From a virus (Duplodnaviria; Heunggongvirae; Uroviricota; Caudoviricetes), in the IMG/VR virus record IMGVR_UViG_2703718810_000003: DNA of 43,509 bases; one strand, written 5' to 3'. The notes beneath the pieces were generated by a model. That model had not been told where the DNA came from and did no database searches. It was given only the letters and a program-made list of their open reading frames with translations. Below are positions 37,045 through 39,147 of the stretch, piece by piece. Each line of letters starts with the position of its first letter. The first letter of the stretch is position 1. The position numbers were made by a program, and so were the translations under genes.

Positions 37045-37470
37045 TTAGTGCATCACCACAGCATTCCCTGCCGGGCCGCCGCGATTCATCTGGTCATACA
37101 AAACAACCGCTGACGCAACAAAATCATCGACATCCTTCACCAGCCGATCCCTCCGTTCGACGATCTCACGGTAATATTCAGAACTGTGGCTGCGCATACG
37201 GGCCACCAGCAAAGGCGGCATCGCCTTTTCGATCGCCGGTAACAGAGCCTGCATTTTTTCAACAGCATCAGGGGTGTCTTTATCCAGCCAACGGAAAATT
37301 TTCTGTGTATTACGGGCCAGGGCTTCCGGATGGCTGTCGTCGTACAGTTCAGGGAACGTCATCCCCAGTTCGAAATAAGTCCGGGCTATTTCAGCTGCAG
37401 GAACTTTCTCACCGTCCGGATAGGCCCAGGCATTGATCGCCATGCGGATGTGCTCATGCTTGATTTTCAT
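37045..37470 (-). CDS. CII-like regulator (YdaT-like)
   Basis: 141 aa beginning MKIKHEHIRMAINAWAYPDG, immediately downstream of the Cro-like gene; family by recollection of Rac ydaT. Confidence 0.5.
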   Translation of the reverse strand: MKIKHEHIRMAINAWAYPDGEKVPAAEIARTYFELGMTFPELYDDSHPEALARNTQKIFRWLDKDTPDAVEKMQALLPAIEKAMPPLLVARMRSHSSEYYREIVERRDRLVKDVDDFVASAVVLYDQMNRGGPAGNAVVMH

Positions 37471-37735
37471 GAATCAAGCTCCTAGAAAGTGGTTGTGTTA
37501 ACGTTTTGGTATCTTCCAGCTCAGGCCAAATATTCATCCAATCAAAAGGCCTTAGTTGCTGACGTGTAACTTCACCATTACTGGCTCGCTCAATAAGGAC
37601 ACATAACGATGCCCCTAACACTTGGCCTTTACTCAATGCCTTTCTTAGATAACCGATGCTGGTACCACACTCGCATGCAAACATACGCTGTTCATCTGAC
37701 GAAAGAGAATTGAGAAATATTCTTAATTCTTCCAT
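37454..37735 (-). CDS. Cro-like HTH regulator (YdaS-like)
   Basis: 93 aa; AGGAG RBS; divergent from repressor gene across operator-containing region. Confidence 0.55.
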   Translation of the reverse strand: MEELRIFLNSLSSDEQRMFACECGTSIGYLRKALSKGQVLGASLCVLIERASNGEVTRQQLRPFDWMNIWPELEDTKTLTQPLSRSLIHENQA

Positions 37736-37764
37736 AGCTACTCCTTAGTAAACACAGCAAAGAA

Positions 37765-37776
37765 TACCTATAGGTA
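37765..37776. promoter_or_regulatory. Operator-like 12-bp perfect palindrome TACCTATAGGTA in divergent promoter region
   Basis: Shares TACC...GGTA half-sites with sites at 37804 and 38301/38326. Confidence 0.5.
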
Positions 37777-37803
37777 AACAAAAGTCAATACCTTTGGGTT
37801 GTT

Positions 37804-37815
37804 TACCTTACGGTA
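37804..37815. promoter_or_regulatory. Operator-like site TACCTTACGGTA overlapping candidate repressor promoter
   Basis: Imperfect palindrome with the same half-sites; a third partial site TACCTATGG overlaps the repressor ATG. Confidence 0.45.
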
Positions 37816-37835
37816 ATCACATCTATTATTTACCT

Positions 37836-38255
37836 ATGGACAAATATGAATTTAGACGACAGCAGCTCATCAAAATTCGTGATGAGAAATGCGATGGTAA
37901 AGCGGTTAACGTAGCCAGAAAGATCGGTCGCGAGCCTTCTTATGTATCAAGAATGTTGTACCCAGAGGGGAAAAAGGGAAAAAAACGGATCGCTGATGAT
38001 ATGGTGGAGATTATCGAAGAGTCCTTTGGGTTACCCCGAGGATGGATGGATGGTATCGTTTCATCATCAACGAACACAGCCTCCAATTATGAAACAAGGG
38101 TTCTAACGCCACGACAACGTATTTTTTTAGATCTCTTAGACGAGCTGCCAGAAAGTGAAGCGGATAACTTATTAAAAACTCTTGAAGAGAAAAAACAGTA
38201 TTACAATATGATCTACGAAGAAATCCGTAAAAAGAAAGCACAAAACGCATCATAA
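37836..38255 (+). CDS. Prophage repressor (CI-functional analogue, RacR-like HTH protein); probably leaderless
   Basis: MDKYEFRRQQL... with HTH (VNVARKIGREPSYVSRML); TATTAT -10 only 7 nt upstream of ATG at 37836. Confidence 0.6.
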   Translation: MDKYEFRRQQLIKIRDEKCDGKAVNVARKIGREPSYVSRMLYPEGKKGKKRIADDMVEIIEESFGLPRGWMDGIVSSSTNTASNYETRVLTPRQRIFLDLLDELPESEADNLLKTLEEKKQYYNMIYEEIRKKKAQNAS

Positions 38256-38300
38256 CTCACCAAACAACCAGTCACCAGTTAAGACGCCTGAAAAAAAAGT

Positions 38301-38337
38301 TACCCATGGGTATTTACTTTTTGGGTACCCATGGGTA
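38301..38337 (+). promoter_or_regulatory. Candidate pL with two perfect 12-bp palindromic operators TACCCATGGGTA (38301..38312 and 38326..38337)
   Basis: Palindromes spaced 25 bp centre to centre; TTTACT-N17-TATGCT promoter-like hexamers at 38313..38341 with the second palindrome in the spacer. Confidence 0.5.
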
Positions 38338-38522
38338 TGCTTCCTTTCATACCAACCCACTCCGCCCCACAGAATGCAGGGCAATACCTCGAGTTACCCG
38401 GCAGTGGTCAGGGGTTAAGTAGCCAGCCCGAGGCGTATGAACATGACGGCGGGAACACTTTGTATAACAGCGCAGCAGGTTTTTAGTTCCGCTACCCGGC
38501 GTTAAGGGTAAATGGGGTCAAC

Positions 38523-38675
38523 ATGGATACTATCGAGCTTGGCAACAACGAATCTCTGGTGTGCGGAGTATTCCCCAACCAAGACGGCACGTTTACCGCG
38601 ATGACGTATACCAAAAGTAAAACGTTTAAAACCGAAGCTGGCGCGCATCGCTGGTTAGCCAGAAACGCTAACTGA
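38523..38675 (+). CDS. Hypothetical 50-aa protein
   Basis: MDTIELGNNESLVCGVFPNQDGTFTAMTYTKSKTFKTEAGAHRWLARNAN; below ORF-track size cutoff. Confidence 0.35.
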   Translation: MDTIELGNNESLVCGVFPNQDGTFTAMTYTKSKTFKTEAGAHRWLARNAN

Positions 38676-39147
38676 TTAGCGCCAGTAAAAACAGGTTTCC
38701 ACAGGTTAATTTACCCTGAAAAGTCAGGGCATAACACGAAAGCGCACGGCGAGATTCCTTTGCATATAAGGTTAGATTTCTTCGACCGTGCGCTTCCGGT
38801 TGTGGCAATCCGCGAAATGGCGCGGCGGTAAGTATGGCGGGGTTATTCCTTCCCCCGTTGAGGACACCGGGTTGTCAGGTTGACCATACGCTTAAGTGAC
38901 ACCCCAGCCACAACAACCTCTGTTATCACTTTTCTGGTGATTCGGCGGAAATGAATATCCGCCCTTTTTAAAGTGAATTTTGTGATGCTGTGAATGCGGC
39001 TATGCGCACGCGGAACAGTTAAAGCAGTAAGGCGGTCTTTTACTGGCGTAACGAGCATCAACTAACCCGACGTTAATTGTTAACTGGTTAACGTCACCTG
39101 GAGGCACCAGGCGCTGCATCACAAAATTCATTGTTGAGGACGCGATA

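What the first reader, a model, noticed from the sequence alone, without database searches (positions are those of the whole stretch)
37736..38341. Shared operator half-sites at the divergent immunity promoters and at a distal pL-like promoter
Palindromes with TACC...GGTA half-sites occur at 37765..37776 and 37804..37815 (between Cro-like and repressor genes) and as two perfect copies of TACCCATGGGTA at 38301..38312 and 38326..38337, overlapping a promoter-like sequence aimed at the exonuclease-xis-int operon. This reproduces the lambda OR/OL logic with a different operator sequence, and the repressor appears to be translated from a leaderless mRNA.
Basis: seen in the sequence. Interest (0 to 1): 0.5.

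Follow-up and report, generated by a model that had tools for sequence, protein, structure and literature searches.

The report
Prophage repressor operators, lambda-style switch
These short palindromes are very probably the DNA sites where an E. coli prophage's repressor and Cro-like protein bind to keep the prophage silent; it is an ordinary lambda-type genetic switch that uses a recognition sequence I found described nowhere.

Summary
TACC-N4-GGTA occurs exactly four times in 43.5 kb (0.18 expected), all at the stated coordinates.

- Phage mEp043 and about 28 loci from gamma-, beta- and alphaproteobacteria encode the same N-terminal DNA-binding domain. They carry the same sites at about -73, -48 and -33 from the repressor ATG.
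- Most also have a pair 25 bp apart around a downstream promoter, with the same overlap of sites and promoter hexamers as in the window.
- Among six E. coli copies, the half-sites never vary (0 of 40 columns), while the central 4 bp vary in 13 of 20.
- A -10-like hexamer ends 7 nt before the ATG and there is no Shine-Dalgarno sequence, so a leaderless transcript is plausible.

The repressor is a chimera. It has an mEp043-type HTH domain and a DicA-like, non-cleavable C-terminal domain. pL heads a dicBF-like operon (DUF1391 gene, dicF-like RNA, dicB, exonuclease, xis, int).

The architecture matches the characterised Qin (DicA), Rac (RacR) and CP-933P (PaaR2) switches. This is a new member of a known kind, of modest interest.

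The parts
37765..37776 (.). OR1-equivalent operator TACCTATAGGTA. Its first two bases overlap the -10 of the PR-like promoter, which runs on the minus strand.
   Evidence: Exact match. A site at about -73 from the repressor ATG is present in nearly all related loci. Half-sites are invariant in 6 E. coli copies.
37789..37800 (.). It abuts the PR -35 on one side and ends 2 bp upstream of the PRM -35. Its centre is at about -41.5 from the ATG/+1.
   Evidence: a GGTT/GGTC variant site at about -48 is conserved across loci. It is absent only in loci that also lack the Cro homolog.
37804..37815 (.). OR3-equivalent operator TACCTTACGGTA, overlapping the -35 and spacer of the PRM-like promoter.
   Evidence: It is often degenerate (TACT... 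or ...AGTA) in distant loci, as expected for a weak autoregulatory site.
37761..37788 (-). PR-like promoter TTGACT (37788-37783), 16 nt, TATTCT (37766-37761), driving the Cro-like and YdaT-like genes and the replication genes.
   Evidence: Promoter scan. The TCAATACC motif (-35 joined to OR2) is conserved across loci. AAGGAG lies 5 nt before the cro ATG.
37802..37829 (+). PRM-like promoter TTTACC, 16 nt, TATTAT. The -10 ends 7 nt before the A of the repressor ATG (37836), which would give a leaderless mRNA.
37836..38255 (+). Repressor, 139 aa. It has an N-terminal XRE-type HTH domain (about residues 1-75), a disordered linker (76-87) and a DicA-like helical C-terminal domain (89-134). It has no S24 peptidase domain and no Ala-Gly or Cys-Gly bond.
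   Evidence: phrog_5736 'transcriptional regulator', E=5e-70. No Pfam hit. The DNA-binding domain is shared with S24 repressors. 33% identity to the DicA C-terminus, E=1e-7. AF2 model with pLDDT 82. Fold hits to phage Rep 5d50 and XRE HTH proteins..
37454..37735 (-). Cro-like regulator, 93 aa (weak match to the YdaS family), divergent from the repressor gene.
   Evidence: 73% identical to mEp043 Cro. Homologs lie in the same divergent position in at least 22 loci that share the operators. phrog_35; PF15943 below its cut-off.
38301..38312 (.). OL site 1, TACCCATGGGTA, immediately upstream of the pL -35.
38326..38337 (.). OL site 2, TACCCATGGGTA, 25 bp from site 1. Its last TA forms the first two bases of the pL -10.
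38313..38341 (+). pL-like promoter (dicBp equivalent): TTTACT, 17 nt, TATGCT. Predicted +1 is near 38348.
   Evidence: Read from the sequence; below the scan threshold. The same site/-35/site/-10 register is found in 21 other loci and at mEp043's annotated putative PL. Homology with Rac begins at 38348.
38291..38298 (+). A8 tract upstream of OL1; possibly an UP element (inference).
   Evidence: An A-rich tract sits at the same place in most loci.
37460..37477 (.). YdaT box TTGATT-N6-AATCAA spanning the start codon of the YdaT/CII-like gene; probable PRE-like establishment element.
   Evidence: Single perfect match in the window. It matches the published YdaT box in sequence and position (PMC11879457; PMC9986795, abstract).
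37045..37470 (-). YdaT/CII-like activator gene.
   Evidence: PF06254, E=3e-10; phrog_163 'CII-like transcriptional activator', E=2.5e-47.
38523..38675 (+). First gene of the pL operon, DUF1391 (homolog of YdfA/YdaF).
   Evidence: PF07151, E=3.5e-29. Same position as ydfA in Qin and ydaF in Rac.

Best explanation
This is the immunity switch of a lambdoid E. coli prophage that looks at least partly defective. It is built exactly like lambda OR/OL but uses a 12-bp operator, TACC-N4-GGTA.

Inferred mechanism: dimers of the 139-aa HTH repressor bind the half-sites TACC/GGTA.
- At the divergent region, the pair OR1 (37765) and OR2 (37789), 24 bp apart, brackets the -35 and covers the -10 of the PR-like promoter. 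This shuts off the Cro-like gene, the YdaT-like gene and the replication genes.
- Repressor at OR2, centred about -41.5 from the repressor's start, is placed to activate the PRM-like promoter.
- OR3 (37804) overlaps the PRM -35, which would give negative autoregulation.
- PRM starts transcription at or next to the A of the ATG at 37836, so the repressor mRNA is leaderless.
- The same arrangement recurs downstream of the repressor gene: two sites 25 bp apart, the first abutting the -35 and the second overlapping the -10. There it represses a pL/dicBp-like promoter heading the operon DUF1391 gene, dicF-like RNA, dicB, DUF1482 gene, exonuclease, xis, int.
- The Cro-like protein travels with these operators across phages and presumably binds the same sites, with the opposite preference.
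- A perfect YdaT box at the start of the CII-like gene probably provides a PRE-like route for establishing repression.

The repressor has a DicA-like helical tail instead of an S24 autoprotease. Induction should therefore not go through RecA-stimulated self-cleavage. It would need an antirepressor or stochastic switching, as for DicA in Qin.

Shown here: the sites, their statistics, their conservation in position and sequence, the domain homologies and the promoter geometry. Inferred: binding, the order of occupancy, activation at PRM, the leaderless start, and the induction route.
For: Site statistics: 4 exact sites against 0.18 expected, all within 573 bp.

Comparative evidence:
- mEp043, a lambdoid phage with an S24-type cI whose DNA-binding domain is 65% identical, has three sites between cro and cI at the same offsets. 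It also has two sites 25 bp apart over its annotated putative PL.
- The 28 genome loci encoding the domain come from Enterobacterales, Aeromonas, Burkholderiales, Stenotrophomonas, Hydrogenophilaceae and Xanthobacteraceae.
- Nearly all of the 28 loci have sites at about -73, -48 and -33. Together with mEp043, 21 of these 29 loci have a downstream pair spaced 24-26 bp.
- In total there are 81 exact sites, against the roughly 3 I estimate for that much DNA.
- Control: K-12 Rac, with an unrelated repressor, has no exact TACC-N4-GGTA site. Instead it has TTAGGC...GCCTAA palindromes in the same two places.

Within E. coli: 0 of 40 half-site columns vary, against 13 of 20 central columns and 39 of 141 other non-coding columns (Fisher p=1.5e-8 and 1.8e-5).

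Promoters: both divergent promoters were called by the scan. The pL register is conserved. The mosaic junction with Rac lies at the predicted pL +1.

Leaderless start: TAnnnT at -12/-13 in 18 of 28 loci against a 1.8% background, and an SD-like motif in 3 of 28. The analogous paaR2 was shown leaderless by 5' RACE and N-terminal sequencing (PMC8630535).

Proteins: the Cro-like protein is 73% identical to mEp043 Cro and co-occurs with the operators. The repressor is modelled as HTH, linker and helical tail. Its best fold hits are an antirepressor-controlled phage repressor and XRE HTH proteins. Its C-terminus is homologous to DicA. It has no S24 domain and no Ala-Gly bond.

Precedent for the logic: Qin (PMC10448788), Rac (PMC11879457) and CP-933P.
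Against: - No binding, footprint, reporter or 5'-end data exist for this repressor or operator, as far as I could find.
- The window's own pL hexamers are weak: 8 of 12, not called by the scan. Most E. coli copies have TATCCT as the -10.
- The two OL copies also form a -22.9 kcal/mol hairpin that passes a terminator screen, so part of the signal there could serve termination.
- The -10-like hexamer before the ATG is not TAnnnT in 10 of 28 loci, mostly non-enteric ones with TGAAAT or TTGAAT.
- Conservation of the whole intergenic block could partly reflect common descent rather than selection. The contrast between invariant half-sites and a variable centre argues against that.
- No antirepressor was identified: there is no Rem homolog. 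The induction route is therefore open.
Confidence: 0.85

Rival explanations
1. The distal pair (38301-38337) is mainly an intrinsic, possibly bidirectional, terminator that ends the repressor transcript. The resemblance of its arms to the OR palindromes would be secondary.
For: The terminator scan calls a 16-pair stem with a 5-nt loop followed by TGCTTCCTTT. The hairpin energy is -22.9 kcal/mol. An A8 run upstream would give a U8 tail on the minus strand. There is no other terminator-like hairpin between the repressor stop (38255) and this element, whereas mEp043 has a separate canonical terminator before its OL.
Against: In related loci the two sites differ in their central bases and the hairpin is much weaker, -5 to -17 kcal/mol. 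The 25-bp spacing and the -35/-10 register are kept regardless. Other E. coli copies lose the stem extension (GGG becomes AAA) and have non-identical centres. Any two palindromes with the same half-sites pair with each other automatically. The + strand tail is U-poor. A secondary terminator role in this particular copy is not excluded.
Confidence: 0.12
2. The palindromes are bound only by the Cro-like protein, or by the YdaT-like protein, and the 139-aa protein recognises something else or is not a DNA-binding repressor.
For: The Cro homolog co-occurs with the sites almost as faithfully as the repressor's N-terminal domain. No Pfam HTH family matches the 139-aa protein.
Against: Klebsiella loci with the domain but no Cro homolog still keep the sites at -73 and -33 and the downstream pair. 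The protein models as an XRE-type HTH and belongs to a PHROG of transcriptional regulators. In mEp043 the same domain is the N-terminus of the annotated cI. YdaT has its own, different box, and that box is present at 37460.
Confidence: 0.05
3. The sites are inert relics of common descent in a decaying prophage and no longer carry out any regulation.
For: The DnaC-like replication gene has an internal stop in the window. The near-identical record has several pseudogenes.
Against: The module is intact in 822 of 5,426 complete E. coli genomes. The repressor and cro reading frames are conserved. The half-sites are invariant while neighbouring bases change. pL controls dicB, a cell-division inhibitor whose homolog must be kept repressed in Qin (PMC10448788).
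Confidence: 0.05

Closest known systems
Qin prophage DicA/DicC/dicBp switch of E. coli K-12 (PMC10448788 and the work of Bejar et al. cited there)
   Same: A short repressor (135 vs 139 aa) that lacks the RecA-cleavable bond. A divergent Cro-like gene. Operators at both the divergent promoters and a downstream promoter heading an operon of DUF1391 (ydfA), dicF and dicB. The C-terminal domain is homologous (33% identity, E=1e-7), and the dicF/dicB region is homologous.
   Different: The N-terminal DNA-binding domain and the operator sequence are unrelated: Qin has TTAG(T/C)-type palindromes (read from the sequence). Qin's Cro (DicC) and its right arm differ. Qin's antirepressor Rem has no homolog in the window.
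Lambdoid phage mEp043 (NC_019706), cI/cro immunity region
   Same: Same operator, same three-site OR with 25/15-bp spacing (window 24/15), and the same two-site OL over PL. The DNA-binding domain is 65% identical and Cro is 73% identical.
   Different: mEp043 cI is 228 aa and has an S24 autoprotease C-terminus. The phage has N, a lambda-type cII and a separate terminator before OL. Its operators are not annotated in either GenBank record, and I found no paper describing them.
CP-933P PaaR2/YdaS/YdaT switch of E. coli O157:H7 (PMC8630535; PMC9986795)
   Same: A divergent spacer of about 100 bp, a leaderless repressor gene, YdaS-type Cro and YdaT-type CII with the same YdaT box, and a PL/OL downstream of the repressor operon.
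   Different: The operator is different (repeats with consensus GTTTAGTAA). In CP-933P the repressor is co-transcribed with a toxin-antitoxin pair.
Rac prophage RacR/YdaS/YdaT (PMC5700373, PMC11879457)
   Same: Same gene order on both arms. The leader after pL is about 90% identical to the window from the predicted +1 onward. YdaT box present.
   Different: RacR is unrelated in sequence. Its sites are TTAGGC-N3-GCCTAA-type palindromes (read from the sequence).
Bacteriophage lambda cI/Cro with OR1-3 and OL1-3 (textbook knowledge, from memory)
   Same: A cooperative pair about 24 bp apart over PR and PL, a site adjacent to the PRM -35 centred near -42, a third site over PRM, and a leaderless cI mRNA from PRM.
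   Different: Sites are 12 bp rather than 17 bp. OR2-OR3 are only 15 bp apart. Only two OL sites were detected. The repressor lacks the S24 domain.

Membership tests
Lambdoid immunity region (cI/Cro bistable switch with OR and OL) | Divergently transcribed repressor and Cro-like genes separated by a short spacer that holds multiple copies of one palindromic operator overlapping both promoters | tested here: met
   100-bp spacer with three sites. Both promoters were called by the scan and overlap the sites.
Lambdoid immunity region (cI/Cro bistable switch with OR and OL) | The same operator repeated at a second promoter (PL) on the far side of the repressor gene, directing the recombination/int arm | tested here: met
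   Two exact sites at 38301 and 38326 over TTTACT/17/TATGCT. All downstream genes lie on the + strand through int. The promoter itself is inferred from conserved architecture, not measured.
Lambdoid immunity region (cI/Cro bistable switch with OR and OL) | Operator specificity co-inherited with the repressor's DNA-binding domain and with Cro (an immunity module) | tested here: met
   The sites co-occur with the domain in about 28 loci and mEp043. Cro homologs are present in at least 22. There are no exact sites in Rac.
Lambdoid immunity region (cI/Cro bistable switch with OR and OL) | Repressor and Cro physically bind the operators and give bistability | not testable with these tools
   Needs EMSA or footprinting and reporter assays.
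S24/LexA-type autocleavable phage repressors (lambda cI type) | C-terminal S24 peptidase domain with an Ala-Gly or Cys-Gly cleavage site | tested here: not met
   No Pfam S24 hit. 139 aa with a helical C-terminus. No AG or CG dipeptide. Relatives with the same N-terminal domain do carry PF00717.
DicA-type short non-cleavable prophage repressors | HTH N-terminal domain, a C-terminal helical domain of about 50 aa homologous to DicA's, and a total length of about 135-140 aa | tested here: met
   C-terminal residues 89-134 align with DicA 84-129 (33% identity, E=1e-7). AF2 model. The N-terminal domain is not DicA-like, so membership holds for the C-terminal chassis only.
DicA-type short non-cleavable prophage repressors | Inactivation by a dedicated antirepressor (Rem for DicA) | tested here: inconclusive
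   No Rem homolog by tblastn. Other antirepressor families were not searched systematically.
Leaderless repressor mRNAs (lambda cI from PRM; paaR2) | Transcription start coincides with the A of the start codon, and there is no Shine-Dalgarno sequence | tested here: inconclusive
   The geometry fits: the -10 ends 7 nt before the ATG, there is no SD, and both features are conserved. The 5' end has not been mapped.

The most novel reading that the evidence does not exclude
The HTH domain, its TACC-N4-GGTA operator set and the cognate Cro form an old, portable specificity cassette. Its geometry has stayed almost base-for-base constant across gamma-, beta- and alphaproteobacterial prophages. Meanwhile the repressor's C-terminal 'sensor' half has been swapped repeatedly between at least three S24 autoprotease variants and a DicA-like non-cleavable tail. 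The unusually fast turnover of the central 4 bp (13 of 20 columns, against 39 of 141 for other non-coding DNA) might then reflect selection that tunes site affinity without changing specificity, as with the non-contacted central bases of the 434 operator (from memory).
Probability: 0.3. Interest if true: 0.45.

Novelty: new member of a known kind. Interest (0 to 1): 0.3.

Why it matters
About 15% of complete E. coli genomes (822 of 5,426), including O157:H7, O55:H7 and O111:H8 strains, carry this immunity region. In all of them its repressor is annotated only as a hypothetical protein. Naming the operator gives several practical returns:
- It allows a direct prediction of this repressor's regulon: PR, PRM and the dicBF-like operon, which includes the cell-division inhibitor DicB.
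- It defines an immunity group shared with phage mEp043 and many prophages.
- It suggests that these prophages do not respond to the SOS signal in the classical way.
- It is a clean natural example of a DNA-binding module reused on different sensor domains.

It does not change how lambdoid switches are understood.

Tried and rejected
- RacR homology: none, so this is not the Rac immunity type.
- Pfam and PDB sequence searches gave no usable hit for the repressor: no Pfam family, and only weak hits (E about 0.07) to Z-alpha winged-helix domains, which I disregard.
- Rfam found no family for the region at gathering thresholds. At E<1 the only match to the hairpin itself was a spurious miRNA, and the other sub-threshold hits are probably chance.
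- The pL leader (38348-38525) was folded to look for a put- or nut-like structure. It is no more stable than shuffled sequence (z=+1.0).
- Literature searches for mEp043, for the motif written with N's and for four literal site sequences found no description of this operator. Two further searches failed on term syntax.
- Rem antirepressor homolog: none. A LexA-box-like pattern (CTGT-N8-ACAG) matches at three places, all more than 16 kb from the immunity region; I did not follow them up.
- I first assumed the whole window was colinear with NZ_AP045176. That is true only from 10497 onward, so the IS600 and portal pseudogene of that record are not attributed to the window.
Full report
**1. The observation**

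- TACCTATAGGTA at 37765-37776
- TACCTTACGGTA at 37804-37815
- TACCCATGGGTA at 38301-38312 and again at 38326-38337

A pattern search for TACCNNNNGGTA finds these four sites and no others in 43,509 bp. Dinucleotide-preserving shuffles give 0.18 matches on average, and none of 100 reaches four. Allowing one mismatch adds TACCTTTGGGTT at 37789-37800, between the two sites of the divergent region. Two further one-mismatch matches (38385, 38493) lie in leader DNA that Rac shares despite having a different repressor. I treat them as chance.

**2. Genes around the sites**

- 37836-38255 (+) encodes a 139-aa protein. It has no Pfam match but matches PHROG 5736, 'transcriptional regulator', over its full length (E=5e-70).
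- 37454-37735 (-) encodes a 93-aa Cro-like protein. It matches phrog_35, with a sub-threshold YdaS hit.
- 37045-37470 (-) encodes a YdaT/CII-like protein.
- Upstream of these on the minus strand are replication genes: an HTH/DnaD-like gene and a DnaC/IstB-like gene that carries an internal stop.
- Downstream of the repressor, all on the + strand, are a DUF1391 gene (homolog of YdfA/YdaF), dicB, a DUF1482 gene, a 3'-5' exonuclease gene, xis and int, followed by the host gene ompW.

From 10497 onward the window is 99.86% identical to a chromosomal prophage of E. coli JNEC-KY179. The 610-bp immunity segment occurs in 822 of 5,426 complete E. coli genomes, including O157:H7, O55:H7 and O111:H8 strains. 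The repressor is annotated as 'hypothetical protein' in all sampled records.

**3. Promoter geometry**

The scan calls two promoters in the 100-bp spacer:
- + strand: TTTACC (37802-37807), 16 nt, TATTAT (37824-37829)
- - strand: TTGACT (37788-37783), 16 nt, TATTCT (37766-37761)

On the minus strand the order is OR2, then the -35, then a spacer containing most of OR1, then the -10, whose first two bases are the last TA of OR1.

The distal element has the same order on the + strand: site 1 (38301-38312), TTTACT (38313-38318), 17 nt containing most of site 2, then TATGCT (38336-38341), whose TA is the end of site 2. That promoter scores 8 of 12 and falls just below the scan's threshold, so in the window taken alone it is only promoter-like.

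OR2 ends 2 bp upstream of the PRM -35. Its centre is about -41.5 from 37836. From memory, that is the position from which lambda cI at OR2 activates PRM. OR3 overlaps the PRM -35. The PRM -10 ends 7 nt before the A of the ATG and no Shine-Dalgarno sequence precedes it. By contrast, the cro-like gene has AAGGAG 5 nt before its ATG.

**4. The decisive test: do the sites follow the DNA-binding domain?**

A database search showed that the first 75-85 residues of the repressor are 70-85% identical to the N-termini of 221-242-aa LexA/S24-family phage repressors. These come from Salmonella, Edwardsiella, Yersinia, Pantoea, Klebsiella and other genera. Short proteins of about 137 aa with the window's type of C-terminus occur in E. 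coli, Salmonella, Serratia and Yersinia.

Phage mEp043 has such a cI: 228 aa, with a DNA-binding domain 65% identical. Its sites are:
- Between cro and cI: TACCTGTAGGTA, TACCCATAGGTT and TACCGGCAGGTA, with 25/15-bp spacing (window: 24/15).
- Over its annotated putative PL: TACCTATAGGTA and TACCTGTAGGTA, 25 bp apart, in exactly the window's register.

I then fetched 28 loci from one-genome-per-species contigs, using an alignment of the domain alone as the query. They span Enterobacterales, Aeromonas, Arsenophonus, Paraburkholderia, Herbaspirillum, Ralstonia, Alcaligenes, Stenotrophomonas, a Hydrogenophilaceae MAG and a Xanthobacteraceae MAG. Results:
- Nearly all have sites at about -73 and -33 from the ATG, and a GGTT/GGTC variant at about -48.
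- 21 of the 29 loci (the 28 plus mEp043) have a downstream pair 24-26 bp apart, with site 1 abutting a -35-like hexamer and site 2 ending in a TAnnnT -10.
- In all, 81 exact sites were found in the scanned intervals, which run from 120 bp upstream to 2.7 kb downstream of each ATG. My estimate for that much DNA is about 3.
- Positions 1-4 and 9-12 are fixed by the search pattern. Positions 5-8 show only a Y-R-Y-R preference.

Two controls support the link:
- K-12 Rac has an unrelated repressor and no exact site. It has TTAGGC...GCCTAA palindromes in the same two locations instead.
- Five Klebsiella loci carry the domain but lack a Cro homolog. They also lack the middle site and the adjoining PR -35, yet they keep the outer sites and the downstream pair.

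**5. Footprint within E. coli**

I aligned six E. coli copies that are 86-99.8% identical. None of the 40 half-site columns varies. 13 of the 20 central columns vary, as do 39 of 141 other non-coding columns and 43 of 420 coding columns. By Fisher's exact test:
- half-sites vs centres: p=1.5e-8
- half-sites vs other non-coding DNA: p=1.8e-5

This is the pattern expected when a dimer contacts the outer four base pairs of each half-site.

**6. The proteins**

The AlphaFold model has a mean pLDDT of 82. It shows helices at residues 3-18, 23-30, 34-41 and 54-63, with an HTH at 23-41. A disordered linker spans 76-87, followed by helices at 92-103 and 106-138. Foldseek's best hits are the antirepressor-controlled Rep of Salmonella phage SPC32H (5d50; E about 6e-4, TM about 0.45), followed by many XRE-type HTH proteins.

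Residues 89-134 align with DicA 84-129 (33% identity, E=1e-7). The protein has no S24 domain and no Ala-Gly or Cys-Gly bond. It is therefore a chimera of an mEp043-type DNA-binding domain on a DicA-type tail.

The Cro-like protein is 73% identical to mEp043 Cro. Homologs at 41-73% identity sit in the same divergent position in at least 22 of the loci. Cro, OR, the cI DNA-binding domain and OL therefore travel together as one immunity module.

**7. The downstream promoter and its operon**

I aligned the DNA after the repressor stop codon in the window, Rac and Qin. The three are unrelated through their operators and promoter hexamers. Window and Rac then become about 90% identical from CATACC (38348), which lies 6-7 nt after the -10, that is, at the expected transcription start. 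This mosaic junction independently locates pL.

The operon contains a shortened dicF-like RNA at about 38931-38969. Its seed UUUCUGGUGA is kept and its second stem is truncated. The same form occurs in O157:H7 strain Z892, and Rfam did not detect it. So pL is the equivalent of Qin's dicBp. In Qin, DicA represses dicBp 22-fold, is not RecA-cleavable, and is relieved by the antirepressor Rem (PMC10448788). The window has no Rem homolog.

**8. The leaderless claim**

- A TAnnnT hexamer lies at -12 or -13 in 18 of 28 loci, against a background of 1.8%.
- Several of the other ten have TGAAAT or TTGAAT in the same register.
- SD-like 4-mers occur in only 3 of 28 loci.
- The distance from the operators to the ATG is fixed to within 1-3 nt across bacterial classes.

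That rigidity is expected if the start codon is tied to the promoter. For the analogous paaR2 of CP-933P, a leaderless start was shown by 5' RACE and N-terminal sequencing (PMC8630535). I rate the claim as probable but unproven.

**9. The terminator rival**

The two identical OL copies form a hairpin of -22.9 kcal/mol, which the scan flags as terminator-like. The equivalent hairpins in other loci are far weaker (-5 to -17 kcal/mol), because the centres of the two sites differ there. Other E. coli copies also lose the stem extension. What is conserved is the half-sites, the 25-bp spacing and the promoter register. A secondary terminator role for this particular copy remains possible, because no other terminator follows the repressor gene.

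**10. Comparison with what is known, and verdict**

The architecture is that of lambda. It is even closer to the characterised defective-prophage switches of Qin (DicA/DicC/dicBp), Rac (RacR/YdaS/YdaT) and CP-933P (PaaR2/YdaS/YdaT). A perfect YdaT box lies at 37460-37477, spanning the start codon of the CII-like gene as published for those systems.

Two things are new here: the recognition sequence, and the pairing of this DNA-binding domain with a DicA-like tail. I found no paper or record annotation describing the operator.

The finding is real and correctly interpreted. It is a new member of a well-known kind, of modest interest (0.3).

Noticed in passing
window 37460-37477: A perfect YdaT box, TTGATTttcatgAATCAA, spans the start codon (37470, minus strand) of the YdaT/CII-like gene. 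It is the only match in the window. It matches the published box of Rac and CP-933P in sequence and position, which suggests a PRE-like establishment promoter reading towards the repressor gene.
   Followed up: partly
window ~38931-38969 (+): A shortened dicF-like sRNA lies between the DUF1391 gene and dicB. The 5' seed UUUCUGGUGA and the terminator CCGCCCUUUUU are conserved, but 2 + 17 nt are missing relative to Qin dicF. O157:H7 strain Z892 has the same form. Rfam's models did not detect it.
   Followed up: partly
window 37769-37772, 37793-37796, 37808-37811, 38305-38308, 38330-38333: The central 4 bp of the five operators change faster among E. coli copies than the surrounding non-coding DNA (13 of 20 columns vs 39 of 141, p=0.0016). 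This could reflect affinity tuning, relaxed constraint measured against a constrained background, or gene conversion. It is unexplained.
   Followed up: partly
window 38348 onward vs L002 (Rac): The mosaic junction is sharp. Homology between the window and Rac (about 90%) begins at CATACC, 6-7 nt after the pL -10. The immunity module therefore ends at the predicted transcription start of the left operon. The 175-nt leader up to the DUF1391 gene is conserved but no more stably folded than shuffled sequence (z=+1.0).
   Followed up: yes
window 38291-38298: An A8 tract lies immediately upstream of OL1. An A-rich tract sits at the same place in most related loci. It would lie at about -57 to -50 from the predicted pL start, which is UP-element-like. 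On the minus strand it would be a U8 tail after the OL hairpin.
   Followed up: no
L005, L008, L009, L011, L012 (Klebsiella loci), positions ~2928-2980: Here the same DNA-binding domain sits on a 233-aa S24 repressor, with no Cro homolog upstream, no middle (OR2-like) site and no adjoining TCAATACC. Only the sites at about -73 and -33 and a downstream pair remain. This looks like a two-site variant of the switch in a different genetic context.
   Followed up: no
window 35301-36047 (-): The DnaC/IstB-like replication ATPase gene has an in-frame stop codon (88 aa + 151 aa), so the prophage is probably replication-defective. The near-identical record NZ_AP045176 also has an IS600 in its portal gene. 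However, the first 10.5 kb of the window are not colinear with that record, so this was not assumed for the window.
   Followed up: partly
proteins P0031-P0113: The same N-terminal domain of about 75 aa is fused to at least three clearly different S24-type C-terminal sequences, to the DicA-like tail, and to one 199-aa protein with yet another C-terminus. This points to repeated domain shuffling around a constant specificity module.
   Followed up: no
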